From UHGV virus genome UHGV-0816550: a DNA stretch of 18,217 bases; one strand, given 5' to 3'. This DNA comes from a virus. Numbering within the stretch: position 1 is the stretch's first letter; each line of letters opens with the position of its first letter. This document shows, piece after piece, positions 3,804-18,217 of the stretch. Both the position numbers and the translations under genes were made by a program. The notes below the pieces were generated by a model. It was given only the letters and a program-made list of their open reading frames with translations. It was not told the DNA's origin and made no database searches.

Positions 3804-5900
3804 ATGTCTAGAGATTTAATGCCCAAATCTGGCATACTTCAACCATATGTTGTTGTTTCCAGAGATGCAGCTGTTGTTGGCGTTTCCACTGTAGATGGTG
3901 TTGCTGGAGCTGTAAATTTAACTGATAAATACTTGCAGAAAACAGAAGCGGCTGATGTATATCAAACTAAAACAGAAGGTGCATCTAAAGATTATGTATT
4001 AGATTCAATTAAACCTATCATGGAAGGTGCTTTGTTCAAAGCAGACCCTTTTGTAGATAATAACATCCCTTTCCGTTCTGCTGGGGCTAATGGTGTAGAG
4101 TCTGTGGATATGATGAAAGTCACCACTGATAACTCAATTAAGATTGGTAGTTATGCTTCCTCAGTTCAAGGTGTAGAAATTCACTCTGCTGGTCGTCTTC
4201 AGGTTGTTGACCAGAATGACTCTGGGGTAGAAACTAAGTACCCTGTTTATTCTAAACGATACCGCCCTGAGATTGAAGATTTACCTTTCGCTGCAATCGG
4301 AACTTATGTTAAAGATTCAAAAGGTCGTACTGTTGGTGTTACCCGTACAGGTATTAACTCTGATATCAAACAGCTTACACAGAAGGTTACTTTCACTCAG
4401 CCAGTAACTGTTGCCGATGCAGTTGGTGACTATGATGCTGTCACACTAAGACAACTCCGTAATAGTAGTGGTGGTTCTGGTGGTCCTACAATGAGCGGTA
4501 TTTCTAACTTTGGTATTGGTGATTTCAGACTAGTAGACAGCCGTGCTTTTATCCAATCAAATGATGTTACCTCAGATGGTCAGCTGTTAAATCGTGCTGA
4601 TTACCCAGAGCTTTGGGCTTACGCACAACTATTGACCCCAATTAGTGATGCAGATTGGCTGGCTGACCCCCAACAAAGAGGTAAATACTCTTTAGGTGAT
4701 GGTTCTACTACTTTCCGCGTTCCTGATAGAAATGGCGTTCAAACCGGTTCTATCTCTGGTCTGTATGCTCGCGGTGACGGTGGTAACAGCTCCAACGACG
4801 GTACTGTTCAGCAGAACGCCGCGCCTGATATTACAGGCTCCGTTGGTGCGAACATATGGAGCGTATATGGAGATCCTACGGGGGCGATGTTTGCGGCTGA
4901 TCCAGCACTTAATATTCCGTTAGGCGCAGGAACCACACCAGCGCTTTCCGTCGGCTTTCGAGCGGGCCTATCAAACGCCGCTTATGGTCGCGACAACACG
5001 ACCGAAGTCCGCACCAACAGCTTCATAGGTGTCTGGGTTATTCGTGCTAATGGTGGCTTTACTGCTGCTAATACTTCTTGGTCTGTTATTAATGGCGACA
5101 GCGTTGCTCCGGGTACTGGAACAAAGATAGTAGGTGGTGAGATTCGTTCTGACTATAATATTGGAGACTCTATGCACATAAGATCCTCTATGCGTGCTGA
5201 TGGTAACTACGGTCAACGTGGAGGTGGTGTATGGAGAATTGAGGACTATCAAGGTAAAAGTGCAGAGATATCTTTCAACCTTGGTGGTGAGTTAGTGGTC
5301 CCAACATACACCAGAGGCGTGGGGTCGGGTTTCATTGCATCTTCTAAATTAGGGTCTGATGGTCAGTGGCCTACAACATCCCCGGCGTTTATTTGTGAGC
5401 TAACAGGCAGAGTGGGTAATCCCGGAACACCGGGTGCTGTTTTCTCCATGTCTATGGCGGAGAACGTGGGTGTTGATAGCTTTGGCATACTTAGATTCTC
5501 AGGAGCAGGGGTGAATGTGGACTGGCTGTTTAACCAGTTTGGTAGTGCCATAGCTCCTGCTAACTGGGTGAGTAATTCGGATATCCGAATTAAAAAGGAT
5601 ATTGCTAAGATAGAAGAACCTCTTGAGAAGATGAAGAAACTACATGGGTACACTTGGCGACGCTTAGACGGGGGCCAGTTTGGTATTGGGTTCATTGCTC
5701 AAGAAGTTCAGGATATCTATCCAGAGTTGGTCTATACAGGCCCAGACAGAACCCTCCCTGATGGAACAGTTGTCAAAGGTGTCCTATCTCCAGATTCTAC
5801 TGGTATTGCGATTGGTCTTCACCACGAAGCTATTCTGGCTTTGATGGAACAAATCGACACCCTTAAAGCAGAGATTGCTGAACTCAAATCTAACAAATGA
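3804..5900 (+). CDS. Tail fibre / tailspike protein 2 (698 aa), paralogue of fibre 1 with collar module and C-terminal intramolecular chaperone domain
   Basis: ATG 3804 with AAGGAG at 3792-3797. Collar-like motif ADYPELWAYAQLL...GDGSTTFRVPDRNG at about 4596-4737, roughly 80% aa-identical to fibre 1 over this module; C-terminal SDIRIKKDIAKIEEPLEKMKKLHGYTWRRLD...LHHEAILALMEQIDTLKAEIAELK. Confidence 0.9.
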   Translation: MSRDLMPKSGILQPYVVVSRDAAVVGVSTVDGVAGAVNLTDKYLQKTEAADVYQTKTEGASKDYVLDSIKPIMEGALFKADPFVDNNIPFRSAGANGVESVDMMKVTTDNSIKIGSYASSVQGVEIHSAGRLQVVDQNDSGVETKYPVYSKRYRPEIEDLPFAAIGTYVKDSKGRTVGVTRTGINSDIKQLTQKVTFTQPVTVADAVGDYDAVTLRQLRNSSGGSGGPTMSGISNFGIGDFRLVDSRAFIQSNDVTSDGQLLNRADYPELWAYAQLLTPISDADWLADPQQRGKYSLGDGSTTFRVPDRNGVQTGSISGLYARGDGGNSSNDGTVQQNAAPDITGSVGANIWSVYGDPTGAMFAADPALNIPLGAGTTPALSVGFRAGLSNAAYGRDNTTEVRTNSFIGVWVIRANGGFTAANTSWSVINGDSVAPGTGTKIVGGEIRSDYNIGDSMHIRSSMRADGNYGQRGGGVWRIEDYQGKSAEISFNLGGELVVPTYTRGVGSGFIASSKLGSDGQWPTTSPAFICELTGRVGNPGTPGAVFSMSMAENVGVDSFGILRFSGAGVNVDWLFNQFGSAIAPANWVSNSDIRIKKDIAKIEEPLEKMKKLHGYTWRRLDGGQFGIGFIAQEVQDIYPELVYTGPDRTLPDGTVVKGVLSPDSTGIAIGLHHEAILALMEQIDTLKAEIAELKSNK
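5577..5897 (+). other. Intramolecular chaperone (peptidase S74-like) domain of fibre 2
   Basis: NSDIRIKKDI...HGYTWRRL...GIGFIAQEVQDIYPELV...GLHHEAIL plus terminal coiled coil; homologous to the fibre 1 C-terminus but divergent (I estimate about 40% identity by eye). Confidence 0.7.
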
Positions 5901-5903
5901 GAT

Positions 5904-5922
5904 AAGCCCCTTCGGGGGCTTT
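5904..5922 (+). terminator. Stem-loop AAGCCCC-TTCG-GGGGCTT; candidate terminator or processing hairpin after fibre 2
   Basis: Perfect 7-bp stem with UUCG tetraloop 4 nt after the TGA stop; same architecture as the hairpin at 3773-3791; weak U-tract. Confidence 0.45.
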
Positions 5923-5992
5923 AGTAGTAAGTACCCTTAGTAAGTAATGAAACTAATATATCCCAAGAGGTTAATATATAGGAGACACTCAA

Positions 5993-6211
5993 ATGAAAAT
6001 GATGAAACAGGCTGCATATGGTTTAATCTGTTTAGTTGCAGGCGTTGTGGTATCAACCGCAGTTCCTGTAAGCGCAGTTCATCCATTAGTAACTGTCCCT
6101 GCTCCAGTAGAGAAGCTTAGCTCTCAATGCAAGCAGAGAACAATTCAAAATAACTTAGTTGTTATTTGCCCCGATGCTGAATCTAACGCTCTGAGAAAGA
6201 TACTACCTTAA
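5993..6211 (+). CDS. Small membrane protein (72 aa), putative holin or lysis accessory protein
   Basis: ATG 5993 with AGGAG at 5980-5984. One N-terminal hydrophobic segment (AAYGLICLVAGVVVSTAV), a proline-rich stretch and a charged C-terminal tail; sits immediately upstream of a lysozyme that has no signal or anchor sequence. Confidence 0.5.
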   Translation: MKMMKQAAYGLICLVAGVVVSTAVPVSAVHPLVTVPAPVEKLSSQCKQRTIQNNLVVICPDAESNALRKILP

Positions 6212-6240
6212 TTTAAAGGGACTACAAAAGGAGGTTAGGA

Positions 6241-6732
6241 ATGGATAACGCCGCATTGCCACCTGTACAACTAAACTTAAGCCCAGCTGGAATGGAATTC
6301 ATCATGAAGCATGAGGGTATGAGAACCAAGGCTTATAAAGATTCCGCAGGTATATGGACTATATGTGTAGGGGCTACGCGCGATATGAATGGTTATCCGG
6401 TTAGACAAGGATTAACGTATTCTATAGAGGATTGTCTAGCTCTGCTAGATAGAGACACACAAGACTCTGTTCGTGCTACTCAAAAGAACATAAAGGTTCC
6501 TTTACTAGTTCATGAGTTTGATGCACTCACTTCTTTCAACTTCAATGTTGGCAGTGGTGCTTTGAGCACATCTAAGTTAAGGAAGGTTATCAATGGAGAA
6601 GTTAAAGGGGATGTATATTCCGAATTTCTTCGTTGGGATAAAATAACGGTCAAGGGAGAGAAGCAGAGAAGTCAGGGTCTTCATAATAGAAGGGTTGCAG
6701 AAGCTGATCTTTACACCGAAGGTAAATATTAA
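6241..6732 (+). CDS. Endolysin, T4-type lysozyme (glycoside hydrolase family 24)
   Basis: ATG 6241 with AAAGGAGG at 6226-6233. HEG-MRTKAYKD-SAGIWTICVG reproduces the T4 lysozyme catalytic spacing Glu-(9)-Asp-(6)-Thr (T4 E11/D20/T26; here E25/D34/T40). No N-terminal hydrophobic segment, so it would be holin-dependent. Confidence 0.9.
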   Translation: MDNAALPPVQLNLSPAGMEFIMKHEGMRTKAYKDSAGIWTICVGATRDMNGYPVRQGLTYSIEDCLALLDRDTQDSVRATQKNIKVPLLVHEFDALTSFNFNVGSGALSTSKLRKVINGEVKGDVYSEFLRWDKITVKGEKQRSQGLHNRRVAEADLYTEGKY

Positions 6733-6744
6733 TGGAGGTGCCTT

Positions 6745-7548
6745 TTGGCTATCGAAACTAATGCGGTAGTTATTACCGACTTAAACCCGCTCTATCCTAG
6801 AGACAGGGATTACATCTACGAAGGGGCGGCTCAAATCCGCCTCATTAAACAAACGTTACAGAACACATTCCCCAATGTTACAGAACCGGTTGATATAGAT
6901 TCTGATACCTTTAAGATTATGTCAGAGAAGCTTAAGTTTACTGGTGATGCAATGGATGTTGGTGGTCTTATGATCAAGAATGTTACTCCGGGAACTGGTG
7001 ACAAGGATGTTGTTACTAAAGGCCAGATGGAAGCGTTCATGAAGAACTGGATGGAGAATAAGCTCTATCGAATTGGTTCTTACTATATCACTGAAGAAGA
7101 CATTAACCCAGGTGATTCAATCTCCTTAGGGTTTGGTTCTTGGGCTAAAGTGACTGGTGTCATTATGGGTACTGGTGTAGTAAACCCTGATGGAACTGTT
7201 CCTAATGCTCAGAGAGTTGAGTTCCAAGCAGGTGGTACTGGTGGTCGTGTCTTCAATACTATTCGAACTGAGAACGTACCTTTGATGACAGTTAATGGCT
7301 CCAGCTTCTCTCTATCCAGTAATACTCACAGTCACAATATGGTGTTTGGTCGTGGGGATGCTAGTGGTCATAACAGCTCACCAAACTGGTATAGTCCGGG
7401 TGGTGGTTATAGTCAGAGAACTGATAATGACACACATACTCATACAATCTCTGGTAGTGTAAGTCTTGGTCGTGATGATATCTCTCGTCAACCTATTAAC
7501 ACTTTGCCACCATTCAGAGCAGCTCACATTTGGAGACGTATTAGCTAA
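6745..7548 (+). CDS. Short tail fibre-like / receptor-binding tail protein (267 aa) with two HxH motifs
   Basis: TTG start at 6745 with GGAGG at 6734-6738; no in-frame ATG nearby. C-terminal region NTHSHNMVFGRGDASGHNSS...DTHTHTISG has HxH motifs and an FGRGD-x-G-x-NSS motif also present in both fibres, recalling the T4 gp12 type collar and metal-binding tip region. Confidence 0.7.
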   Translation: MAIETNAVVITDLNPLYPRDRDYIYEGAAQIRLIKQTLQNTFPNVTEPVDIDSDTFKIMSEKLKFTGDAMDVGGLMIKNVTPGTGDKDVVTKGQMEAFMKNWMENKLYRIGSYYITEEDINPGDSISLGFGSWAKVTGVIMGTGVVNPDGTVPNAQRVEFQAGGTGGRVFNTIRTENVPLMTVNGSSFSLSSNTHSHNMVFGRGDASGHNSSPNWYSPGGGYSQRTDNDTHTHTISGSVSLGRDDISRQPINTLPPFRAAHIWRRIS

Positions 7549-7557
7549 GGAGGAATT

Positions 7558-10500
7558 ATGGCGCTGTATCCAATAAAGTCACTAGGTGCTGTAGGCGTTA
7601 TCGCTGATCAGGCTCCGACAGACTTAGCTCCTAATGCTTTCACTAATGCTATAAATGCTCGATTTGTTGAGCAGAGAGTATTTAAGACGGGGGGCAATGC
7701 CCCTCTTTCTTATGTAGATGAAGATAAGGATTTAACCCCTCTGTCTTTCGTTTCTATGCCTTTCGATTATTATAGCGCAGGTAATAGCTTTCTTGTTGTA
7801 GGTACTAATAAGAAGTTATATAAACTGACAGATGAAAGCTTGACTGATATTAGCCGTAAGGTTGCTACAGTCACTAAGAAGGCTTCTGCCTCAATTAAGA
7901 TTTATCCAGTTGTTTCTCAGATCGTTCCTAAAGAATCAACTATCTCAATGAACTTCAATCAGACCAAGAATCTAGAGGTTTCTCTTCTCCCTGCTGATGC
8001 TAACAATACCGATCTTATTTGGGAGGTTAGTAACTCATCCTATGGAAGTATTACGGTAGACCCTAGTGACTCTAAACTTGCTACTCTAACATCTTTTGAG
8101 AAAGAGGGTAATCTTGTAGTAACTATCTCTACTGCCAATGAATCCGTAGTGGCTCAGATTGCTGTTAATATTATCGATGGCGATTCAGGCATCTTCTTGA
8201 GTCAAGACACTGTTACAATTCGTAAAGGAGGGACTACTACTCTCACGGCTGTTACTGGCAAGACTCCTGTAACTTGGTCCAGCAATAACGCTTCTATTGT
8301 ATCTGTAACCCCTAATGCCAACTCTTTAACTGCTGTCATTACAGCGAATGGAGAAGGTAATGTAACAATCACTGCTGATAACGGGACTAAGACTGCTTCT
8401 TGTGAGATTGTTTCTATCCCTCAGATTGATAGTATCTCTTTAAGCCAGTCAGATGTTACTGTGAGTAGAGGTTCTCAGTATATTTTAACTGCCACCCTTT
8501 CTCCTGCTAACGCCCCTAATCAAAACATTACTTGGACCTCTTCTAACCCAAATATTGCAACAGTATCAGGGACTAGCACACAAGGGACGATCAACGCTCT
8601 GCTTGCTGGTTTTACTGAGATTACAGCTACCACTGAAGAAGGTAACAGAGTTGCTGTCTGTACTGTACGTGTGGATTTAGCTGGAAGGACAATGAGAACA
8701 AGTGCTATGGCATTTGCCGCTCCTGTGTCAGAGTCAGTAGAAACTCAAGAGGAAGAAGTAGTAACTCCTCCTGAAAGTGAAGAGACGGTTTATTTTGCTG
8801 AGCCTACATCCGGTATTGATACGTCAGGGATGTATGAAGGTAACAACTTCTACGACTACTCTAACGTGAATGACATTGAAGGTTTTGCAAGAGCTTCTTT
8901 ACTGGCAACCCCTTTGTCGTCTGTAACCTTAGATATTGTCAGCGCCTCCCTTGATGTTGGTGAAGAGATTGTCATTACAGCCACAGCTTCTCCAGAAGGT
9001 GAGTACTCTTATCAGTGGTCTGTTGATAAAACTGGTTATGTTTCTACAACTTCAGTTACTGGTAAATCTATCAAACTGGTTGCTCTTCGTAAAGGAGAGA
9101 TTAACGTAACATGTACTGTCAGCCAGATGACTCAGAAAGATTATGATGCTTTTGATGACTACCCTTGGTATCACGCTGTTATCTCTAACTGTGCAGTTGC
9201 TACAACTCACTATGAAACTCCTCAGGTAAAAGAATTCGAATCAGAATACTTTGTAGACCTCCCGGGGTGGGGTGAGCAAACAGTTGTTGATAATGATGGA
9301 AACCCTTCAGTCAAGAAGTTTAACTGGAAATGTGAGAGAGTGAGATCTTTTAACAACCGTCTTTTTGCTCTGAATATGAGAGAGGCTAATGCTTCTGGTG
9401 TTACCACTAACTATCCGCTTCGTCTTCGTTGGTCTAACTTTGCCAATGAGAACAAGGCTCCTACACTGTGGGATGACTTTGCCTATGATCGAGTTGTGTC
9501 TTCGGACTTAGCTTCTAACATCGTAGGGCAGACTCAGGCTCTAGAGAATGGGTATGCTGGTTACATCGACTTAGCAGATTCTAATGGTAGCTTGATTGAT
9601 ATCCTACCTCTTAAAGACTACTTGTTTGTTTATACAGAGTTTGAAACGTATATTGGTTCTCCGACTAATAACACATACCAACCTCTGATGTTCAAGAAGC
9701 TCTTTAACGACTCTGGTATCCTTGCTCCCGAGTGTGTGGTTGAAGTAGAAGGCAGTCACTTCGTAGTTACTCAGAACGATGTAATCTTACACAATGGCGC
9801 AACCAAGAAGTCAATTGCATCTAACCGTGTCAAGAACATGCTGATTAACGAGGTGTGTCTGGTTAATCCTCTAGCAACTCGAGTACACTTGCATCAGGAT
9901 AAGAAAGAAGTTTGGGTTCTGTATGTAGGTCCGGGAGAACCAAAAGAAAGCTTCGCTTGCACCAAAGCTGCTGTATGGAATTATGAGTTTGATACCTGGT
10001 CTTTCCGTACTATCCCATATGCTCAGTGTATTGGTCTGGTTGATCCTCCTGTTTTAGAAAGAGGTCCAATCTGGTCTGACTTCCAAGAAATCACTTGGGA
10101 TGATCCGTCTATTAAAGAACTCGTTTGGAGAAAGGATGCAACAAACTTTAGACAGAGGGTTACGATAGTAGGTTCGTTCTTGAGGGGATTCTATCAGGTG
10201 GATGTAGGTGCTCTTGATTATTTCTATGACAGGCTAAACGATGTTGTTATAGAGAAGCCTCTGGAAATGAGGTTGGAGAGGACTGGTATAGATTTTGATA
10301 ATGTGACGAATGAGTGGAATCAGAAGCATATTAATAGATTCCGACCTCAGACAACTGGCTCAGGTACTTACATATTTGAAGCTGGTGGCAGTCAATTCTC
10401 AAATGAATATGGACACCCACATACATCTAAGACTTATACAATCGGTGTTGACAGGCATGTCTCGGTGAGACTGAACCATCCATACCTTTTCTATAATGTT

Positions 10501-10575
10501 ATAGATAATGATGTTAACAGTAATGCTGCTATCAATGGTTTGACGATAGAGTTTGCTGTTGGCGGGCGGAGATAA
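7558..10575 (+). CDS. Large virion structural protein (1005 aa) with four internal Ig-like (Big_2-type) domains
   Basis: ATG 7558 with AAGGAGG at 7547-7553. Four roughly 80-aa repeats between about 7903 and 9120 with the Big_2 pattern (for example TISMNFNQTKNLEVSLLPADANNTDLIWEVSNSSYGSITVD; VTIRKGGTTTLTAVTGKTPVTWSSNNASIVSV; VTVSRGSQYILTATLSPANAPNQNITWTSSNPNIATV). Flanking N- and C-terminal regions not recognised. Confidence 0.8.
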   Translation: MALYPIKSLGAVGVIADQAPTDLAPNAFTNAINARFVEQRVFKTGGNAPLSYVDEDKDLTPLSFVSMPFDYYSAGNSFLVVGTNKKLYKLTDESLTDISRKVATVTKKASASIKIYPVVSQIVPKESTISMNFNQTKNLEVSLLPADANNTDLIWEVSNSSYGSITVDPSDSKLATLTSFEKEGNLVVTISTANESVVAQIAVNIIDGDSGIFLSQDTVTIRKGGTTTLTAVTGKTPVTWSSNNASIVSVTPNANSLTAVITANGEGNVTITADNGTKTASCEIVSIPQIDSISLSQSDVTVSRGSQYILTATLSPANAPNQNITWTSSNPNIATVSGTSTQGTINALLAGFTEITATTEEGNRVAVCTVRVDLAGRTMRTSAMAFAAPVSESVETQEEEVVTPPESEETVYFAEPTSGIDTSGMYEGNNFYDYSNVNDIEGFARASLLATPLSSVTLDIVSASLDVGEEIVITATASPEGEYSYQWSVDKTGYVSTTSVTGKSIKLVALRKGEINVTCTVSQMTQKDYDAFDDYPWYHAVISNCAVATTHYETPQVKEFESEYFVDLPGWGEQTVVDNDGNPSVKKFNWKCERVRSFNNRLFALNMREANASGVTTNYPLRLRWSNFANENKAPTLWDDFAYDRVVSSDLASNIVGQTQALENGYAGYIDLADSNGSLIDILPLKDYLFVYTEFETYIGSPTNNTYQPLMFKKLFNDSGILAPECVVEVEGSHFVVTQNDVILHNGATKKSIASNRVKNMLINEVCLVNPLATRVHLHQDKKEVWVLYVGPGEPKESFACTKAAVWNYEFDTWSFRTIPYAQCIGLVDPPVLERGPIWSDFQEITWDDPSIKELVWRKDATNFRQRVTIVGSFLRGFYQVDVGALDYFYDRLNDVVIEKPLEMRLERTGIDFDNVTNEWNQKHINRFRPQTTGSGTYIFEAGGSQFSNEYGHPHTSKTYTIGVDRHVSVRLNHPYLFYNVIDNDVNSNAAINGLTIEFAVGGRR

Positions 10576-10579
10576 CAAC

Positions 10580-10608
10580 AAGGGGCTTCGTGCCCCTTTT
10601 ATTGTTTT
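10580..10608 (+). terminator. Rho-independent terminator-like hairpin AAGGGGC-TTCGT-GCCCCTT followed by a U-rich tract
   Basis: 7-bp GC-rich stem at 10580-10586 / 10592-10598, then TTATTGTTTT; lies 5 nt after the TAA stop at 10573-10575 and before the next gene's GGAGGA site. Confidence 0.6.
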
Positions 10609-10618
10609 GGAGGAACTT

Positions 10619-11587
10619 ATGGGTGCAGGTGGTTTTCGTAAGAATACTGGTCGCAACAATACCACACTCCCGTACAACGTTGGGTTTCTCAATAATGTAC
10701 AGGACACAGAAACATATAACGTAGCCGTATATGATGAGCTACAAAAAGTCAGTACAGCTACTAACCAAATGTTCCAAGCTATAGATGAAATTCACGAAGA
10801 GATTGATGTTCGTATTAAAGCTCTTAATGCAATGAATCTACAATTTGATGAGCTTGAGAATAGAATTACTACAGAGATAGAAACAGCTATTGCAGATATC
10901 CAAACCCAGATGGGGAACCTGTCCACTGAGGATATTTGGGATAATTCTGTTCAACCTCCTGTGAAGCTGGAAAGCACTGTATCTGGTTTTAAGACTAGCA
11001 TCGAAGGTAACACAACTAAGATTCAGACAGTAGAAGGTATTGTTAACGATCAAGGTCAAGAGATTGCTCTTGTTCAGACAGAACTGCAAAATATCAACGG
11101 AAGCCTTTCTCAGTATATGAAACTCTCTGAGTATGAAGCTACGTGGGGTGTTAACTCTACAGTCAACGGAAGATATGCTGGGGTCAAGTTAACTAACAAC
11201 GGAACAAACAGTCAATTCCAAGTAACAGCTAACAAATTTATTGTTGGTGATGGCAGCTCTGGGAATACTCCCTTCGTATTTGAGGGTGGGCGAGCTAGGA
11301 TGGAATTCGCTGATATAAAGAATGTCAATATCACAACAGCTCAGATTGCTAACGCTAGAATCCAATGGGCACAGATTGATAACGTATCCATCTCCAACGC
11401 CCAGATTCAGAACTTGTCAGCGGATAAGATTACTGCTGGTTCTATGTGGGGTTCTAACTGGAGACTTACTGTTGGTGGTGACTTTGTTATGGGTGGTACA
11501 GGTGGAGCGCAGTTGTGGATGAATGGTAACAGAATAGACTTCTATGATGGAAGTGGTGCTCTTAGAATCAGGATAGGGAGTTGGTAA
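10619..11587 (+). CDS. Tail protein (322 aa) with coiled-coil region and J-like beta-repeat C-terminal domain
   Basis: ATG 10619 with GGAGGA at 10609-10614; the ORF-track start at 10553 is a TTG inside the previous gene and terminator. Heptad-like central region; C-terminal repeats NITTAQIANARIQWAQIDNVSISNAQIQNLSADKITAGS resemble tail tip / host-specificity protein repeats. Confidence 0.75.
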   Translation: MGAGGFRKNTGRNNTTLPYNVGFLNNVQDTETYNVAVYDELQKVSTATNQMFQAIDEIHEEIDVRIKALNAMNLQFDELENRITTEIETAIADIQTQMGNLSTEDIWDNSVQPPVKLESTVSGFKTSIEGNTTKIQTVEGIVNDQGQEIALVQTELQNINGSLSQYMKLSEYEATWGVNSTVNGRYAGVKLTNNGTNSQFQVTANKFIVGDGSSGNTPFVFEGGRARMEFADIKNVNITTAQIANARIQWAQIDNVSISNAQIQNLSADKITAGSMWGSNWRLTVGGDFVMGGTGGAQLWMNGNRIDFYDGSGALRIRIGSW

Positions 11588-11588
11588 T

Positions 11589-12620
11589 ATGGCATATGGA
11601 ATATGGACACAACCAGTAGGGCCGGGGCCAGCAACCCCCGCTCCCTTATTTATTGATAGCGGAAGTACTTTCCCTCAGTTCAAGAATAGTATAAGAGGGA
11701 GTTTTAACTTTAATGGAGCTGGGAGATCTTTCCCTATTAGTGGATGGGATGGCAGTGGTCAGATAGTTATTGTTCCCACCGGTTCTTTATGCTGGCAATG
11801 GGAAGTCCCTCCTAACCTAGTTCCTGATGTTTATTGTGTGAATAATATCTACGTAGAAAACAGTTCCTCTTTTAGAGTTACTCTGAATCAGAACCCCGGC
11901 AGTAACCCCTTATTTGACTGTGGGTTCAACGTATATCAAATATGGCCTAGAGCGGATAGGAATTACGGAATTACCTTTTCTAATACAGCAGACTACTTCT
12001 CGATATCTGATAGTGGGGTCGTCGGTCAATGTATTTGGGCTTGGCAGGGGACCATAAACAATGCCCTTCAGATACCAAATATCGGTGGGTTCAATATGAC
12101 CAATGCTGTTGTGTTTGCTAATTGGTCTGATGGAGGGATAGGACTATCTTATACTTCTGATGACAGGGTTATTCGTGTTTATCAGAACAGACCTTACATA
12201 AACGGCAACACTAATGAGGGTGGTTCTGTGTTTGCTAGAATTGCAGTATTCTGCAATGGAGCAGGAGTTCCGGAACATAACGGAGGTTTGAATATTTACT
12301 CTCCGGGTACCACGCAATGTGTCTTCTCTACTAATAGAACACCTTTCACTGTGGATACTTTTATAGGCTCAGGAGGTGGTAACACTGGAATGTCATACCC
12401 TATGATACCTCTTACCTCTGGAATAGGTGCGATAAAAGGCCAAGGCAGTGGATGGAGGTATCAGCAAATGAGATCTCACACAATGAGTGGTTCTAGCATA
12501 GGAACTGGTTATGGAAGATATCTATTTCAATGGGATCAAAATTACGACCTAGGAGCTGATACTGTAGTTAATTTATCAGTTCCTGTAATAAATGCAGCTA
12601 AGGTTTTTGCTGGACTATAA
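11589..12620 (+). CDS. Hypothetical virion protein (343 aa), Gly/Asn/Trp-rich
   Basis: ATG 11589 lies 1 nt after the TAA of the previous gene (TAATATG), suggesting translational coupling. Long ORF with composition like neighbouring structural genes; no family motif recognised. Confidence 0.7.
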   Translation: MAYGIWTQPVGPGPATPAPLFIDSGSTFPQFKNSIRGSFNFNGAGRSFPISGWDGSGQIVIVPTGSLCWQWEVPPNLVPDVYCVNNIYVENSSSFRVTLNQNPGSNPLFDCGFNVYQIWPRADRNYGITFSNTADYFSISDSGVVGQCIWAWQGTINNALQIPNIGGFNMTNAVVFANWSDGGIGLSYTSDDRVIRVYQNRPYINGNTNEGGSVFARIAVFCNGAGVPEHNGGLNIYSPGTTQCVFSTNRTPFTVDTFIGSGGGNTGMSYPMIPLTSGIGAIKGQGSGWRYQQMRSHTMSGSSIGTGYGRYLFQWDQNYDLGADTVVNLSVPVINAAKVFAGL

Positions 12621-12632
12621 CAAGGAGATATT

Positions 12633-13415
12633 ATGGCAATTAAAATGGGTATTGAAGAACTAGACCCAATGGTTCAACAGGCTTCAAAGAAGTATGGGAT
12701 TCCTGCTGCTTTGATTCATGCTGTAATCCAAAGAGAGTCTAGTGGTCGTCCTACGGTAGCCTCTGGAACTGGTCCTGTAGGTTTAATGCAGATCAGTAAA
12801 GGGTTGGCTAAAGACTACGGTTACAAACTAGAAGACAGACTTGACCCAGCAAAGAATATTGATATGGGTGCTCGTTATATTAGAGATAACTTAAAGGCTT
12901 TTAATGGTGATGTTAAGAAAGCAATGGTTGGTTATTCAGAAGGTATAGGTGGAGCTAAGCAAATGTTTGCCGGTAAAAAGGGATTTACACCTCAAGCCCT
13001 TGACTCAATGAACAACAAACACTTTCTTCCTTTCTATGATGATGCAGCTTCTCAGATTGCTAACCCTATTGGAGCTTTGCAAGCTGTTCAACCAGTCAAT
13101 CAGTTTAGTCCGGATACTCTTGATAGGGAGAAGGCTGCTCAAGCCCCAACTCAGGCAGAAATTACTGCTTCTAAGACTGGTGCTTTAGGTGGCAATCCAG
13201 TAGAGTTTTACTCTGATGAAGTGCAGGAAGGAGAAAACCAGAAGCCTCAACAGAACTTTGGTAATGCAGTATTAGGGGTAGCTGCTATGCTTGCCGGTAA
13301 ACCTCCTACTTCTCAAACAGTTCAGAGGGCAAGTGCACCACATGCAGCAGGTTCTCAGTACAGTCCACAAACACAAGCAGTGCTCAGACGTTTAGCTAGC
13401 ATTGGTGTAAAGTAA
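12633..13415 (+). CDS. Virion-associated lytic transglycosylase (SLT-domain) protein, 260 aa
   Basis: ATG 12633 with AAGGAG at 12623-12627. N-terminal signature AVIQRESSGRPTVASGTGPVGLMQIS, with the candidate catalytic Glu35 at codon 12735-12737; placed beside putative ejection proteins, as with peptidoglycan-cutting internal virion proteins. Confidence 0.8.
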   Translation: MAIKMGIEELDPMVQQASKKYGIPAALIHAVIQRESSGRPTVASGTGPVGLMQISKGLAKDYGYKLEDRLDPAKNIDMGARYIRDNLKAFNGDVKKAMVGYSEGIGGAKQMFAGKKGFTPQALDSMNNKHFLPFYDDAASQIANPIGALQAVQPVNQFSPDTLDREKAAQAPTQAEITASKTGALGGNPVEFYSDEVQEGENQKPQQNFGNAVLGVAAMLAGKPPTSQTVQRASAPHAAGSQYSPQTQAVLRRLASIGVK

Positions 13416-13434
13416 TAATCTTTAAGGAGGACTT

Positions 13435-14487
13435 ATGTCTTTATTTGGAAAATCAGCTTCTAGCAAAACCACAGTGGCCCCTTCCTCTCAGGTTGATGCC
13501 CTGCTGAAGCAGATTGTTGCTAATGCTCAGAATATGCAGAACAACGATCCGGGATTCATCTCCCAACAGCTGGCTGGGTTTAATGGCAACCAACAAGGTG
13601 CTCTGAACAACTTAGCAGCTTCTACTACTCAGAAGCAATTGGCTGATATGTACACGCCTCGTACACAGCAAGGGTTGGACCAATTAAACTCTCTTGCACA
13701 GCAGTATCAGAATATTGTCAATGGTGGTGGTCTAACTGCTGATGGTGTTAATAACTTCAGTAAAGGATTGAATAACTCAGCTCTTGCTCAAGCGACTAGT
13801 AAGGCAGCTTCCAATGTATCCCTCGGAAATGGTTCTGACTCTGGTTCTCTTCGTAGGGCTGCGGCTCAAGGGGCTGCTTTGAACAGTGCTAATACAAACT
13901 TAGCCCGTACTATCAGTGGCAAGAATATGGGAATCAGTGCTCTCCAACAAGACCAAAACTTTCAGAGGGGTTTACTTGGTGCTCAGTCAGGATTGGCTGG
14001 ACAGAATCTCAACCTTGGTGCTCAAGGTGTTCAGGCAACTCAACAAGCTATCCAGAATCAACTCATGGCTGGTAATCTACAACAGCAACAAGCCCAAGCT
14101 CAAGCTGATATTAATTGGCAGAACGCTATTGGCTCTCAACAGTATGGGTGGAATCAGCTTAACAATCAGCTTAATGTATTAAACAGTGTAAGTCCAATGG
14201 CTGGGTACACGATTAAGAATGCTGCTCCGGGAGTCAATACTGGACAACAGCTCCTAGGTGCTGGTATCACTGGTTTAGGTATTGCAGGTCGTATGGGTGC
14301 TTTCTCTCCTAACCAACAGACTCAGAATGCTTGGAGTTCCTATAACAACTCAGGTGGGCAATCTGGAATGGCTGGACCTATGATTGGAGGTTCTAATCTT
14401 TCTCAACAGAGAGGTCAGTCTAACTGGTTATCCACAGCAGGTAGTAATATCTTAGGTGGTGTCTTAGGGGCATTTGGAGTAAACTAA
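13435..14487 (+). CDS. Q/N/G-rich low-complexity virion protein (350 aa) with C-terminal glycine-zipper segment; putative ejection/internal protein
   Basis: ATG 13435 with AAGGAGG at 13425-13431. Strongly biased composition (poly-Q, N, G, A, S) and a C-terminal small-residue hydrophobic segment (GSNILGGVLGAFGV). Confidence 0.75.
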   Translation: MSLFGKSASSKTTVAPSSQVDALLKQIVANAQNMQNNDPGFISQQLAGFNGNQQGALNNLAASTTQKQLADMYTPRTQQGLDQLNSLAQQYQNIVNGGGLTADGVNNFSKGLNNSALAQATSKAASNVSLGNGSDSGSLRRAAAQGAALNSANTNLARTISGKNMGISALQQDQNFQRGLLGAQSGLAGQNLNLGAQGVQATQQAIQNQLMAGNLQQQQAQAQADINWQNAIGSQQYGWNQLNNQLNVLNSVSPMAGYTIKNAAPGVNTGQQLLGAGITGLGIAGRMGAFSPNQQTQNAWSSYNNSGGQSGMAGPMIGGSNLSQQRGQSNWLSTAGSNILGGVLGAFGVN

Positions 14488-14499
14488 AGGAGATTTGAT

Positions 14500-15469
14500 A
14501 TGGGACTTTTCGGAGGAGGGGGTAGTAAAACTACTTCCCAAATGATTCGCCCTGAATATATTCAACAGTATATTGACCAGCTTAACCAGCAGATTGGTAA
14601 TACTAGTTCTAGGGGATTATGTCTATCGTGACAACGTAGGATTTAATAACAACCAGACAGAAGCCCTTAATAATTTGGCTCAATCCGGTGCTTTAGGGAC
14701 TCTCTCGCAGCAATATATGGATGCAGCAGGTCAAGGGTTGGGTTATCTGGATAATGCCTATAAAGGCTACCAGAGCCTCTCTGGACAAGGTGGGATTACT
14801 GGAGAACAGATTGGTGCTCTCGCTGGTCAACTGTATGACGATGATGCTGTGCAAGCAGCCATTACCGCTAATAATGAACAGGTTCAACAGAACTTGGCAC
14901 GTAATGCTCTTCCTCAATTAGCTCAACAGTTTGCTGGTCAGCAAGGTTCAGGTGCTCGTATGGCTAAATCTTTTGCCCAAGGTGATGCTCTGAATCAGAT
15001 GCAAGGCCAAGCAACAGATATTACCAACAGTGCCTATAACTCGGCTATTAGCCAAGCTGAAAGCATCCTCTCTGGTAATAGACAGAATCAAGCAGCTGCT
15101 CTCTCAGGTCTTTCTAATATTGGTTCTAACCTTTCTAACCTAGGTCAGCAGGGTGCTAATTTGTCTCAACAGCAAATAATGAATCAATGGAATGCAGGAT
15201 TGCAGCAACAACAGCAACAACAGAATGAATATGATAATGCCTACCAGAATGCTCAGAACGCAGCTAATTGGGGATGGCAAGATATCAATAACCAACTCGG
15301 TGCAGCAGGTGTACTTAACGGTGCTCTCGGACAAACTACAACTACTAAAACATCTGGAGGTAGGGGTGGCTTCTTAGGAGGGGGTATGAGTGGTGCAGCA
15401 GCAGGCTCTTCCTTTGGACCTTGGGGTGCATTAGCTGGGGGTGTAATCGGTGGGTTGGCTAGTACTTAA
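14500..15469 (+). CDS. Q/N/G-rich paralogue of the preceding protein, interrupted by an apparent +1 frame change near the G4 run at 14612-14615 (sequencing indel, pseudogene or recoding)
   Basis: ATG 14500 with AAGGAG at 14487-14492 opens a frame that stops at TGA 14629-14631 after 43 codons. The long downstream frame (open from 14546 to 15469) has no ATG start with a ribosome-binding site. Both parts align to the upstream paralogue (MSLFGKSASSKTT vs MGLFGGGGSKTT; GFNGNQQGALNNL vs GFNNNQTEALNNL) only if one base is removed. Confidence 0.6.
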
Positions 15470-15482
15470 TTAGGAGACAAAT

Positions 15483-16274
15483 ATGCAACAGACAACTTAC
15501 GCTCAGGTCAGAAGTCGTGACCCGAGAAATACTTTCTATGGTGTTAATCCGGGAGCGGCTTCGGCCTCTCCTTATATGGCTAGACCAACTCAGACAGCAG
15601 ATATTTCTATGTATCAACGTCCTGCTATACCTGCTGGGCTTTCCTCTCTTGTAGGTCAAACTTCAGTAGATTATCAGAATATGTTGAATCCTGTTCAGAG
15701 TAATGGTCTTCCTTCTGATATCCCAAATGATGTACAACCTCAAGCACAACAGGCTGTAACTCTTCCTGAGTTTGAGAATCAAGAAACCATGCAAGCTGCT
15801 GGACTTTCTCCTTCTTCTATTCCTCCAGAATCAGAACCTCTTCCGGTAACACCTCCTACTAAACCGTTAGAAGCTGGTCCTATGGAGTTTACTCCTTCTC
15901 AGGTGGAACAGGCACAAGGTGTGATTAATACTCTTGCTCAAGGACAAGACGCTGGTGATGGAATGACTGCTGCTACTCGTGCTAAAGATCAGGAACGTGT
16001 TAACAACGATATCTTGCAAGTTGCTAAAGCTAAAAATCCTTCAGAAGCTTGGAATAAACTACAGAAAGAACCTTTCTATCAGAACTCCAGTTTCTATACA
16101 GGTTTAATGGGTGTAGGTCTTTCTATCATGTCAGGTAAGTCTCCTATTGAAGCTTTCCAGATTGGTCAGGGAATGGCTAATCAAGATGAGACTAAGAAGC
16201 AACTGGAAGCTAACCGTGATGCTCTGATTGAACAAGGCTTCTCCCAAGACTCGATCGCAGCTGCTATTGCTTAA
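15483..16274 (+). CDS. Hypothetical virion/ejection-associated protein (263 aa) with Pro-rich linker and C-terminal hydrophobic segment
   Basis: ATG 15483 with AGGAG at 15473-15477. Pro/Ser-rich linker (SPSSIPPESEPLPVTPPTKPLEAGP) and hydrophobic FYTGLMGVGLSIMSG near the C-terminus; no family motif recognised. Confidence 0.65.
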   Translation: MQQTTYAQVRSRDPRNTFYGVNPGAASASPYMARPTQTADISMYQRPAIPAGLSSLVGQTSVDYQNMLNPVQSNGLPSDIPNDVQPQAQQAVTLPEFENQETMQAAGLSPSSIPPESEPLPVTPPTKPLEAGPMEFTPSQVEQAQGVINTLAQGQDAGDGMTAATRAKDQERVNNDILQVAKAKNPSEAWNKLQKEPFYQNSSFYTGLMGVGLSIMSGKSPIEAFQIGQGMANQDETKKQLEANRDALIEQGFSQDSIAAAIA

Positions 16275-17967
16275 CACGTTGAGAGCGAGCACGCTGAGAA
16301 GAGAAGCGATTCAGAGCATACTTAGCAGCACCGAGAGTGTTCATTACCAGACTAGGTGAAGAAGCCTCACGGAATCCATCATCAGTCAGGGAAGTCCAAC
16401 CACGATCTTGGTTACTCATAAACTTAGCCGTATTGTTCAGAGTGTAAGCATCTTGGATAGGATTAAAACCTTCAGGCATGCCTTTCAGTTTCTTCAACCC
16501 ACCGATAGCTTTCTTCATCTCTGGAGAAACGTTATCAGCCATCTTCTGTAGTTCAGCAGCTTTCTCTACGAAGTTGTTAAAGTCTTCACCATCACGAGCT
16601 TTGAATCGATTTGCTTCGTTATAGAAAGTCTTGTACGCATCAATGAAATCACGGTCAGCTTGTGTGCGATTCTTAATATCAATCGGACTGCCAGTAAAGT
16701 CACCAGAAGCTCGGAGAGAAACTAACTCACGATCAAGATTATCCAGAACATCTGTAAGAGCTTTAGTGTTATCCTTGGTGTAGTCAGCCATTGCATCTTT
16801 CATAGCGACAGCTTGCTTCTGGTTGTGCTCATTATCAGCGAAGGCTTTACCACGAGTCTTAGCCGGAGAAGCTAAAGGGTTAAGGCCCGGAATGTTGGAA
16901 TGTTCTTTCTGAACAGAAGCAGCTTTCTCAGCACGAGCTTGGTCAGTATTAAGAATACGCTGAGCAGCAGGAGAATCTACAGCAACAGCATCTGTGATAC
17001 GGAATCCGTTCTCGTCGAGAAGGTTCAGAGCAGAAGCAGCGTTAGCAGTTTCAGCTTTAGAGTAAGCCTCTTTCAGCTCATCAATATTCTTAGCACCACG
17101 AATCAGTTCATCATCAGCAGCAATATCAGTCTTCGCATATTCTGGAGTGTTCTTGAAGACAGCAGAATCCGGACGGCTAATCAAACCATGAACTCCACCA
17201 ACTGCACCACCAAATGCAGCACCCATAGCCCCTTCTTCAATAACCCCTTCCAATGTCTTAGCTAAATCATTGTCATCACCATACTTGTTCTGAACTTCAG
17301 CAGCACCAACAAGAGCACCACCTTTAGCACCAGCCACTGCGTTACTAGCAACGTTCTGACCAATACGACCAAGTGTGGACTCAGCTGTACCAACAGCACC
17401 CGGAAGGATTCTCTGAGCTGCATAGTTAGCACCACCAACTAAGGCTGCATCTAGAACAGACTTATCTTCTCCCTCTTCAGGGGTTTGGTCTGCATACGCA
17501 CGACCGGTCTCACGACCTGCGATGATAGCAGCGGCAGCTAATGGGTTAGCAACTGTCAGACCAATGTCGGCAACCACCCCAGCATACTGACCAGCAGACT
17601 TACCAATCCCATCCTCAATCTTATCCATACGTTCTTTCAAGAGGTTTTGAGCGTTCTCTTGCATACGCTTCCCGTAACCAGTTTGTGCTCCAGTTAGATC
17701 TTCACCAATCTCAACTAAGCCCCCAATACCTCTAGCAAGATTAGCAGAGATGTTAGCACTGCCGGACTGAAGAGCATTTGACACACCTTGAGCAAACTCA
17801 CCTATAGCACCACGTTCTTCTTGTTGTGGTTGTGCTACTGGCTGTTCCTCAGGAATAGAGCCACCTGCTGCCTTATATTGTTCTCTCATTCGAGCTTGTT
17901 GCTCCGGAGAGGCATTCAGATACGCAGGAGCTTTGGAAGCTTCTTCCCACGGTTTAATGTTAGCCAT
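16264..17967 (-). CDS. Hypothetical Gly/Ala-rich protein (567 aa), function unknown
   Basis: Minus-strand ATG at 17965-17967 preceded by AAGGAG; product begins MANIKPWEEAS. The ORF-track start at 18012 has no ribosome-binding site. Stop TAG at 16264-16266 overlaps the 3' end of the + strand gene ending at 16274. Confidence 0.75.
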   Translation of the reverse strand: MANIKPWEEASKAPAYLNASPEQQARMREQYKAAGGSIPEEQPVAQPQQEERGAIGEFAQGVSNALQSGSANISANLARGIGGLVEIGEDLTGAQTGYGKRMQENAQNLLKERMDKIEDGIGKSAGQYAGVVADIGLTVANPLAAAAIIAGRETGRAYADQTPEEGEDKSVLDAALVGGANYAAQRILPGAVGTAESTLGRIGQNVASNAVAGAKGGALVGAAEVQNKYGDDNDLAKTLEGVIEEGAMGAAFGGAVGGVHGLISRPDSAVFKNTPEYAKTDIAADDELIRGAKNIDELKEAYSKAETANAASALNLLDENGFRITDAVAVDSPAAQRILNTDQARAEKAASVQKEHSNIPGLNPLASPAKTRGKAFADNEHNQKQAVAMKDAMADYTKDNTKALTDVLDNLDRELVSLRASGDFTGSPIDIKNRTQADRDFIDAYKTFYNEANRFKARDGEDFNNFVEKAAELQKMADNVSPEMKKAIGGLKKLKGMPEGFNPIQDAYTLNNTAKFMSNQDRGWTSLTDDGFREASSPSLVMNTLGAAKYALNRFSSQRARSQRVKQ

Positions 17968-18035
17968 AACGTCTCCTTTTATAAATAAAAATGTCCTACC
18001 CCCTATATACATTATAGAAGGCAGGACTTAGGTCT

Positions 18036-18217
18036 TATTGAGTGAACCAGCTCGTATCTTCAACAGCTGATAGAGCACCATTAAGCTTAGGATTGGTTGC
18101 TGCACCACCAACCGCTTCTTCTGCTTGTTCAGAGAAAACACCTAGAGGGTCATAGAAACCACCAGAAGGGATTGCACGGTTAACCAATGCAGTAGCCCTC
18201 TTCTTGTCCATACCAGA
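18036..18217 (-). CDS. Small minus-strand ORF, possibly the C-terminus of a gene that starts beyond the window end
   Basis: Frame open from the window edge to TAA (complement of 18036-18038); internal ATG at 18209-18211 would give a 57-aa product MDKKRATALVNRAIPSGGFYDPLGVF...; codon usage like neighbours. Start not determinable. Confidence 0.35.

What the first reader, a model, noticed from the sequence alone, without database searches (positions are those of the whole stretch)
14500..14635. Frame disruption at a G4 run in the second Q/N-rich paralogue
The ATG at 14500, with a good ribosome-binding site, opens a frame that terminates at 14629-14631, while the rest of the protein continues in the +1 frame to 15469. 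Alignment to the upstream paralogue (34 vs 35 residues between the conserved KTT and GFN-N-Q landmarks) places the shift at or near GGGG 14612-14615. Either the sequence has a 1-nt homopolymer error, or the gene is inactivated, or it needs +1 recoding. Because an intact paralogue sits upstream, a recently degenerating duplicate is plausible.
Basis: seen in the sequence. Interest (0 to 1): 0.65.

Follow-up and report, generated by a model that had tools for sequence, protein, structure and literature searches.

The report
Stray extra T breaks phage gene
A single extra T, found in no related phage, splits an otherwise well-conserved DNA-ejection protein gene of a phiEco32-like coliphage; it is most likely an error in this copy of the sequence and not a biological feature.

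Summary
The frame break is real in the window: ATG 14500 runs to TGA 14629-14631, and the rest of the gene continues in the +1 frame to 15469. The lesion is not in the G4 run. It is one extra T at 14610 (AGTTC[T]AGGGG), flanked by C and A. GGGG is the ancestral state in intact relatives, and SU10 has GGAG there.

The gene is the Kuravirus ejection protein phiEco32 gp24 / SU10 gp22. It is an old paralogue of gp23 (30% identity), not a recent duplicate.

- None of the 60 listed GenBank relatives carries the T, and 60 sampled of 99 read through the site in one frame. The one IMG/VR metagenome contig and an ENA contig also lack it.
- Deleting the T gives a 322-aa protein whose first 227 residues are identical to phiEco32 gp24.
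- The gene shows 42 synonymous and 4 non-synonymous codon changes against phiEco32. Of 15 lineage-private substitutions downstream of the T, 14 sit at third positions of the ancestral frame, so there is no decay.
- The repaired protein exists exactly in public assemblies, on an NCBI contig that also carries this phage's unique tail-fibre proteins. No frameshifted product is on record.
- The window also holds a private chimeric inversion junction at 16267-16271 that truncates gp25 and gp26.

Best explanation: a sequence or assembly error. A very recent null mutation is second. Recoding is unlikely.

The parts
12633..13415 (+). SLT lytic transglycosylase ejection protein (phiEco32 gp22 / SU10 gp20), intact
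   Evidence: phrog_12507 E=8e-176. Annotated as transglycosylase in phiEco32 and SU10.
13435..14487 (+). Intact Q/N-rich ejection protein, 350 aa (phiEco32 gp23 / SU10 gp21), the upstream paralogue
   Evidence: phrog_4287 E=2e-117. 33 synonymous and 3 non-synonymous codon differences against phiEco32. The exact protein is on record as P0016.
14487..14492 (+). Ribosome-binding site AAGGAG, 7 nt upstream of ATG 14500
   Evidence: Read directly. Conserved in relatives.
14500..14609 (+). 5' part of the gp24 homologue (phiEco32 gp24 / SU10 gp22), frame 0: codons 1-36 and the first two bases of codon 37
14610..14610 (+). The lesion: one extra T (AGTTC[T]AGGGG), not in a homopolymer and private to this window
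   Evidence: Alignments A1 and A2. All 60 listed records match the 60-nt query over 59 nt. It is the only gap in 9.7 kb and in 11.2 kb of alignment. No exact match for the T-containing 30-mer in the viral, metagenome or genome collections.
14612..14615 (+). GGGG run: ancestral sequence (Gly codon GGG plus the G of GAT), not the lesion
   Evidence: GGGG is present in the intact genes of phiEco32, phiEc_1, NJ01 and the ENA and IMG/VR contigs, and in EcK-vB (whose own break lies elsewhere). SU10 has GGAG.
14629..14631 (+). Premature TGA stop in frame 0, giving a 43-aa product
14611..15469 (+). 3' part of the gp24 homologue in the +1 frame (last base of codon 37, codons 38-322 and the stop). It has a Q/N-rich body and a Gly-rich hydrophobic C-terminus
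   Evidence: The repaired protein is 322 aa, matches phrog_4287 at E=3e-109 and is 100% identical to phiEco32 gp24 over residues 1-227. 42 synonymous and 4 non-synonymous codons. 14 of 15 private substitutions are at third codon positions.
15483..16274 (+). N-terminal 263 aa of the gp25 homologue (551 aa in phiEco32), cut by the inversion junction
   Evidence: Matches only positions 1-265 of 551 in phrog_12130. BLAST against phiEco32.
16267..16271 (.). Chimeric or inversion junction with 5-nt microhomology TTGCT, private to the window
16264..17967 (-). N-terminal 567 aa of the gp26 homologue (over 1,470 aa in relatives), inverted and truncated at the junction
   Evidence: Window 16267-18217 is the reverse complement of phiEco32 L004 18762-16812. 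All 12 listed of 99 relatives have the opposite relative orientation.
18035..18217 (-). C-terminal fragment of the gp25 homologue, inverted; it runs off the end of the window
   Evidence: Coordinates mapped and the phiEco32 annotation.

Best explanation
The window is the tail, lysis and ejection-protein module of a phiEco32-like podophage (Kuravirus). The disrupted gene is the homologue of phiEco32 gp24 / SU10 gp22. [quoted passage not shown] The break is one extra T at 14610, which turns TCA GGG GAT into TCT AGG GGA and leads to a TGA stop six codons later. The real phage most likely has the intact 969-nt gene, and the T is an error of this particular sequence copy (sequencing, consensus or assembly). 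Shown: the position and uniqueness of the T, the intact selection signature, the existence of the exact repaired protein in other public assemblies of what appears to be the same phage, and a second private structural anomaly 1.7 kb downstream. Inferred: that the T is absent from the underlying reads.
For: 1. The T is unique.
- All 60 listed of 71 matching GenBank records align the 60-nt query over 59 nt.
- In tblastn, 60 sampled of 99 records read across the site in one frame; 56 align from residue 1 or 2, the rest start a few residues in or align partly to gp23.
- The IMG/VR metagenome contig (the other two IMG/VR loci are phiEco32 and NJ01 themselves) and the ENA contig k141_14099 lack it.
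- The T-containing 30-mer has no match in the viral, metagenome or genome collections.

2. It is the only indel in 9,731 nt against phiEco32 and in 11,244 nt against the ENA contig.

3. There is no decay.
- The repaired protein is 100% identical to phiEco32 gp24 over residues 1-227, while the DNA is about 95% identical.
- Codon differences are 42 synonymous and 4 non-synonymous.
- 14 of 15 substitutions private to this lineage downstream of the T fall on third positions of the ancestral frame. My binomial estimate for that is about 2e-6.

4. Independent assemblies point to an intact gene.
- Logan contigs of run ERR975185 are 100.000% identical to window 4682-14453.
- None of the possible frameshift products (43, 298, 291, 264, 250 or 243 aa) is on record.

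5. The same window has a private inversion junction at 16267-16271 that truncates gp25 and gp26. A viable phage is unlikely to carry this, so it marks the sequence as chimeric or misassembled.

6. Another deposited genome (EcK-vB, PV591327) has its own private 1-nt insertion in the same gene. Isolated frameshifts in this gene therefore do turn up in database records.
Against: - The T is not in a homopolymer and the rest of the window has no other indel, so the sequence is not generally indel-prone. A real mutation would look the same.
The link between the intact gene and this same phage therefore rests on protein look-ups and contig lengths.
- The 'contigs' counts in those tables are visibly incomplete. 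For example, P0031 is listed with 1 contig although two carry it.
- P0001's Logan source could be a close relative (such as ERR11172772, 97.9% identical) and not ERR975185.
Confidence: 0.8

Rival explanations
1. The T is a genuine, very recent frameshift mutation in this phage or in a sub-population or defective genome. It knocks out gp24. The 43-aa N-terminal peptide is useless, and the phage is either non-viable or survives because the paralogue gp23 partly substitutes.
For: The T sits in a non-homopolymer context in an otherwise indel-free sequence. A second database genome (EcK-vB) also has a private frameshift in this gene, which could mean the gene tolerates loss. A paralogue of similar architecture lies directly upstream.
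Against: The gene is intact in essentially all relatives and under strong purifying selection. SU10 gp22 is a bona fide virion ejection protein (PMC9509320). The exact repaired protein is recorded on the contig that carries this phage's unique tail fibres. The co-occurring junction that truncates gp25 and gp26 points to an artefact or a dead genome.
Confidence: 0.14
2. The T is real and full-length gp24 is still made by adventitious +1 ribosomal frameshifting. One route is at UCU-AGG-G, where the ribosome pauses on the rare Arg codon AGG, skips the A and reads GGG GAU, which gives exactly the wild-type protein. The other is at UCG-UGA-C, a weak stop, which gives a same-length protein with 6 altered residues.
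For: The insertion creates an AGG codon in the A-site position, and the +1 reading restores the ancestral sequence exactly. From established knowledge: AGG is the rarest E. coli codon, +1 shifting at hungry AGG codons is known from Spanjaard and van Duin 1988 and from Ty1 CUU-AGG-C, and UGA-C is a poor terminator. Spontaneous suppression of a +1 frameshift mutation at 5% has kept an essential E. coli gene functional (PMC7022156).
Against: It is not conserved in any relative. tRNA-Ser on UCU cannot re-pair on CUA, and tRNA-Ser on UCG cannot re-pair on CGU (inference from the codons). There is no SD-like stimulator upstream and no downstream structure (z=+0.49). AGG is used 26 times in-frame in about 5,100 codons of this window, so it is not a strong pause here. 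Kuraviruses carry a tRNA-Arg(UCU) (PMC9965538). The expected efficiency is about 1% or less (background and shift-prone rates quoted in PMC7022156).
Confidence: 0.04
3. The gene is a recently duplicated copy of gp23 that is decaying into a pseudogene.
For: An intact paralogue lies immediately upstream.
Against: The paralogues share only 30% identity. Both copies are present in all 99 relatives, including those only 65-80% identical. There is one lesion only, 42 synonymous against 4 non-synonymous codons, and private substitutions are still confined to third positions.
Confidence: 0.02

Closest known systems
phiEco32 gp24 (YP_001671769) / SU10 gp22 (YP_009152873), Kuravirus 'DNA ejection protein', phrog_4287
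   Same: Same position in the module: SLT transglycosylase, gp23, gp24, gp25, gp26. Same length after removing T14610 (322 aa). Residues 1-227 are 100% identical to phiEco32 gp24, and the PHROG match is E=3e-109. In SU10, gp20-24 are virion proteins lost on genome release (PMC9509320).
   Different: The window copy carries one extra T that splits it into a 43-aa ORF and a +1-frame remainder.
Database frameshift artefacts, e.g. Escherichia phage EcK-vB (PV591327), whose gp24 homologue is annotated as two CDS
   Same: A private 1-nt insertion in the same gene (970 instead of 969 nt) with otherwise perfect conservation of the downstream frame.
   Different: Different site: about nt 239, next to a G run in EcK-vB, against nt 111 in a non-homopolymer context here.
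[quoted passage not shown]
   Same: The insertion happens to put a rare AGG codon in the A-site of the shift position, and a weak UGA-C stop lies six codons later. A +1 shift would restore the protein.
   Different: There is no slippery P-site codon, no SD-like stimulator and no conservation. This is a resemblance only.

Membership tests
Kuravirus ejection protein gp24/SU10 gp22 (phrog_4287) | Significant full-length sequence match to the family profile | tested here: met
   Repaired protein: phrog_4287 E=2.9e-109 over residues 1-310. tblastn is 100% identical over residues 1-227 to phiEco32.
Kuravirus ejection protein gp24/SU10 gp22 (phrog_4287) | Conserved synteny: SLT transglycosylase, gp23 paralogue, gp24, gp25, gp26 | tested here: met
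   The order is kept up to the gp25 N-terminus, then broken by the private inversion junction.
Kuravirus ejection protein gp24/SU10 gp22 (phrog_4287) | Single uninterrupted ORF of about 322 codons | tested here: not met
   The window as given has a 43-aa ORF plus a +1-frame remainder. The feature is met only after deleting T14610.
Kuravirus ejection protein gp24/SU10 gp22 (phrog_4287) | Present in the virion and released with the genome | not testable with these tools
   Shown for SU10 gp20-24 by SDS-PAGE and mass spectrometry (PMC9509320). Not known for this phage.
Programmed +1 ribosomal frameshift (prfB / Ty1 type) | The frame break is conserved among homologues | tested here: not met
   None of the 60 listed of 71 records has the extra base. 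All 60 sampled of 99 records have one frame across the site.
Programmed +1 ribosomal frameshift (prfB / Ty1 type) | P-site codon whose tRNA can re-pair in the +1 frame (e.g. CUU-U, CCC-N) | tested here: not met
   The P-site codon is UCU and the +1 codon is CUA. At the stop, UCG shifts to CGU (read; pairing rules from established knowledge).
Programmed +1 ribosomal frameshift (prfB / Ty1 type) | Slowly decoded A-site codon (rare codon or stop) | tested here: inconclusive
   The A-site codon would be AGG, which is rare in E. coli. However, AGG occurs 26 times in about 5,100 in-frame codons of this window, and kuraviruses encode tRNA-Arg(UCU).
Programmed +1 ribosomal frameshift (prfB / Ty1 type) | Stimulatory element (upstream SD-like sequence or mRNA structure) | tested here: not met
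   Upstream sequence GGTAATACTAGT has no SD-like motif. The fold of 14600-14720 has z=+0.49.
Decaying duplicate / pseudogene | Relaxed selection (dN/dS near 1) and multiple lesions | tested here: not met
   42 synonymous against 4 non-synonymous codons, and one lesion only. 14 of 15 private substitutions are at third positions.
Decaying duplicate / pseudogene | Recent duplication (high identity to the parent copy) | tested here: not met
   30% identity to gp23. Both copies are present in the relatives examined and both gene queries match 99 records.
Homopolymer-length sequencing error | The extra or missing base lies inside a run of the same base | tested here: not met
   The extra T is flanked by C14609 and A14611. 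The G4 run has the ancestral length.
Transcriptional slippage site | Long homopolymer (about 7 or more A/T, or similar) at the shift site | tested here: not met
   The longest nearby runs are G4 (14612-14615) and G5 (14518-14522).

The most novel reading that the evidence does not exclude
The T is real in a viable phage, and enough full-length ejection protein is made by unprogrammed +1 frameshifting at UCU-AGG-G (or at UCG-UGA-C). This would be a natural case of intrinsic suppression of a fresh frameshift mutation in a virion gene, and could show how low the required dose of this ejection protein is.
Probability: 0.03. Interest if true: 0.45.

Novelty: not a real feature. Interest (0 to 1): 0.07.

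Why it matters
It matters mainly for annotation. The gene should be annotated as the intact 322-aa Kuravirus ejection protein, or flagged as frameshifted pending read evidence. It should not be called a pseudogene, a recoding site or two genes. The case also shows that the paralogue-spacing argument located the break to within 2 nt but blamed the wrong bases. Together with the inversion junction at 16267-16271, it warns that this sequence copy needs checking against reads before any biological conclusion is drawn from its ejection-protein genes. If the T were real, which I think unlikely, it would give a natural test of whether gp24 is dispensable or rescued by low-level +1 frameshifting.

Tried and rejected
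- **Homopolymer G3/G4 error:** rejected. GGGG is ancestral and SU10 has GGAG.
- **Conserved programmed frameshift:** rejected by the survey of relatives.
- **RNA structure stimulator:** none (z=+0.49).
- **tRNA genes in the window:** none.
- **Exact scans for the T-containing 30-mer:** no hit in viral contigs, metagenome contigs or genome contigs.
- **Junction 33-mer in viral contigs:** no hit.
- **Window in other collections:** no match in E. coli complete genomes or PLSDB plasmids.
- **Look-ups of frameshift and junction products:** none is on record. This covers the 43, 298, 291, 264, 250 and 243 aa products, the 263-aa gp25N and the 567/582-aa gp26N.
- **Fetching DNA that encodes the intact P0001:** A gapped pattern in genome contigs found nothing.
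- **Functional family beyond the PHROG:** nothing useful in Pfam, NCBIfam or PDB for gp23 or gp24.
- **Reinitiation:** considered. The nearest in-frame starts in the +1 frame downstream of the stop are TTG 14675 and ATG 14717, with no RBS. They would remove the conserved N-terminus, so I did not favour this.
- **Searches not run:** I did not use the search for homologous proteins or structure prediction, because the answers would not change the verdict.

Full report
**What the window is.** The 18.2-kb window matches about 100 GenBank phage records of the phiEco32 group (Kuravirus, Gordonclarkvirinae) at 90-96% identity. It covers the tail-fibre, lysis and ejection-protein module.
- Gene order follows phiEco32 gp13 to gp26 and SU10 gp18 to gp24.
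- ORF 12633-13415 is the SLT transglycosylase (phiEco32 gp22).
- ORF 13435-14487 is gp23.
- The gene that starts at 14500 is gp24 (SU10 gp22).
- Both Q/N-rich proteins hit phrog_4287, 'DNA ejection protein'. Neither has a Pfam, NCBIfam or PDB relative.
- In SU10, gp20-24 are present in virions and absent from genome-release intermediates. That paper proposes they extend the nozzle across the periplasm (PMC9509320).

**Checking the observation.** The frame break is there as described.
- AAGGAG lies at 14487-14492 and the ATG at 14500.
- Frame 0 ends at TGA 14629-14631 after 43 codons, and the remainder reads in the +1 frame to 15469.
- From start to stop the window has 970 nt, while phiEco32, phiEc_1 and SU10 have 969 nt.
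- The paralogy with gp23 is real but old: 30% identity, E=3e-13.

**Where the lesion is.** Alignments with seven relatives (six different phages) put the extra base unambiguously at T14610: window AGTTC-T-AGGGG against AGTTC-AGGGG.
- The T is flanked by C and A, so it is not a homopolymer change.
- The GGGG at 14612-14615 is the ancestral Gly codon GGG plus the G of GAT. It is present in intact genes, and SU10 has GGAG there.
- The T is the only gap in 9,731 aligned bases against phiEco32 and in 11,244 bases against an ENA contig that is 97.2% identical.

**How common it is.** It is private to this window.
- A 60-nt query centred on the site aligns over 59 nt in all 60 listed of 71 matching records. 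The best three rows (phage LAMP, and EcoN5 listed under two accessions) differ only by the gap.
- In tblastn with the repaired protein, 60 sampled of 99 records read across the site in a single frame; 56 align from residue 1 or 2 and the rest start a few residues in or align partly to gp23. These include relatives only 65-81% identical.
- The one IMG/VR metagenome contig is intact; the other two IMG/VR loci are phiEco32 and NJ01 themselves.
- The T-containing 30-mer is absent from the viral, metagenome and genome-contig collections.

**Is the gene decaying?** No.
- Deleting T14610 gives a 322-aa protein whose first 227 residues are 100% identical to phiEco32 gp24, although the DNA differs at 49 of 969 positions.
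- Codon differences are 42 synonymous and 4 non-synonymous. This is the same pattern as the intact gp23, which has 33 and 3.
- Of 15 substitutions downstream of the T that are private to this lineage (relative to the seven loaded sequences), 14 fall on third codon positions of the ancestral frame. By my binomial arithmetic the chance of this is about 2e-6.
- Selection on the full-length reading frame therefore acted through essentially all of this lineage's own divergence. The T is either extremely recent or not real.

**Independent assemblies of the same phage.**
- Two Logan contigs of run ERR975185 are 100.000% identical to window 4682-11377 and 11376-14453. That run therefore contains this very phage. 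The second contig stops 157 nt before the T.
- Exact-sequence look-ups in the 15-billion-protein collection show that the window's two tail-fibre proteins (1,104 and 698 aa) are singletons. They are seen only on an NCBI contig of 28,121 nt.
- The exact gp21, gp22 and gp23 share that longest-contig length, and so does the exact repaired 322-aa gp24 (P0001, sources NCBI and Logan).
- No product the frameshifted sequence could yield is on record (43, 298, 291, 264, 250 or 243 aa), and neither are the junction-truncated gp25 and gp26 products.
The most economical reading is that other assemblies of this phage have an uninterrupted gp24.

**A second anomaly in the same window.**
- Collinearity with every relative ends at 16271.
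- Window 16267-18217 is the reverse complement of the segment that lies 2.6 kb further on in phiEco32.
- The junction has a 5-nt microhomology, TTGCT.
- It cuts gp25 at residue 263 of 551 (one search shows a match to only positions 1-265 of the profile) and gp26 at residue 567 of about 1,500.
- This junction is also private to the window. Three consecutive conserved ejection-protein genes disrupted by two private lesions within 1.7 kb is what a chimeric or misassembled sequence, or a dead genome, looks like. It is not what a viable phage looks like.

**Recoding.**
- After the insertion the site reads AGU UCU AGG GGA. A ribosome that paused on AGG and skipped the A would read GGG GAU and make the exact wild-type protein.
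- A weak UGA-C stop follows six codons later. This resemblance to hungry-codon +1 shifting is worth stating.
- Against it: the break is not conserved. tRNA-Ser cannot re-pair on CUA or CGU. There is no SD-like element upstream and no structure downstream.
- AGG is used 26 times in-frame in the window's genes, and kuraviruses encode tRNA-Arg(UCU) (PMC9965538).
- Quoted error rates are 1e-5 to 1e-7 per codon, rising to 0.1-1% on shift-prone sequences (PMC7022156).
- At best this would be weak, adventitious suppression of a real mutation.

**Verdict.**
- The best explanation is an erroneous extra T in this copy of the sequence (confidence about 0.8).
- A genuine very recent null mutation comes second (about 0.14).
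- Adventitious +1 suppression (about 0.04) and a decaying duplicate (about 0.02) are unlikely.
- There is nothing new about the gene itself.
- Read mapping of ERR975185 across 14580-14640 and 16240-16300 would settle both anomalies.

Noticed in passing
window 16264-18217 (junction 16267-16271): Private inversion or chimeric junction with TTGCT microhomology. gp25 is cut at residue 263 of 551. The following 1,951 nt are the reverse complement of the gp26 N-terminus plus the gp25 C-terminus. All relatives examined (the 12 listed of 99 GenBank records, and the ENA contig) have the opposite orientation.
   Followed up: partly
L003 (PV591327.1 Escherichia phage EcK-vB) 1601-2570: The same gene carries an independent private 1-nt insertion at about nt 239, next to a G run. 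It is annotated as two 'DNA ejection protein' CDS, which is probably also a sequence error.
   Followed up: partly
window 448-3762 and 3804-5900: The two tail-fibre proteins (1,104 and 698 aa, each with a C-terminal Peptidase_S74 intramolecular chaperone domain) are singletons at 90% clustering among about 15 billion proteins. They diverge from phiEco32 gp14 and gp15 after conserved N-termini, so they are new receptor-binding alleles on a standard Kuravirus backbone.
   Followed up: partly
L009, L012 (Logan ERR975185 contigs 56 and 25): Public run ERR975185 contains this exact phage (100.000% identity over window 4682-14453). Its Logan contigs break at window 11377 and 14453. An NCBI contig of 28,121 nt appears to be another assembly of it.
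   Followed up: partly
window 15350-15466 and 14380-14484: Both paralogues end in Gly/Ala-rich hydrophobic tails (for example GGFLGGGMSGAAAGSSFGPWGALAGGVIGGLAST). These look like glycine-zipper membrane segments, which would fit a role in forming a trans-envelope channel.
   Followed up: no
window 2445-2549 vs 4682-4786: The two tail-fibre genes share a short homologous segment (about 82% identity over 105 nt). It is a possible recombination point for swapping fibre modules.
   Followed up: no
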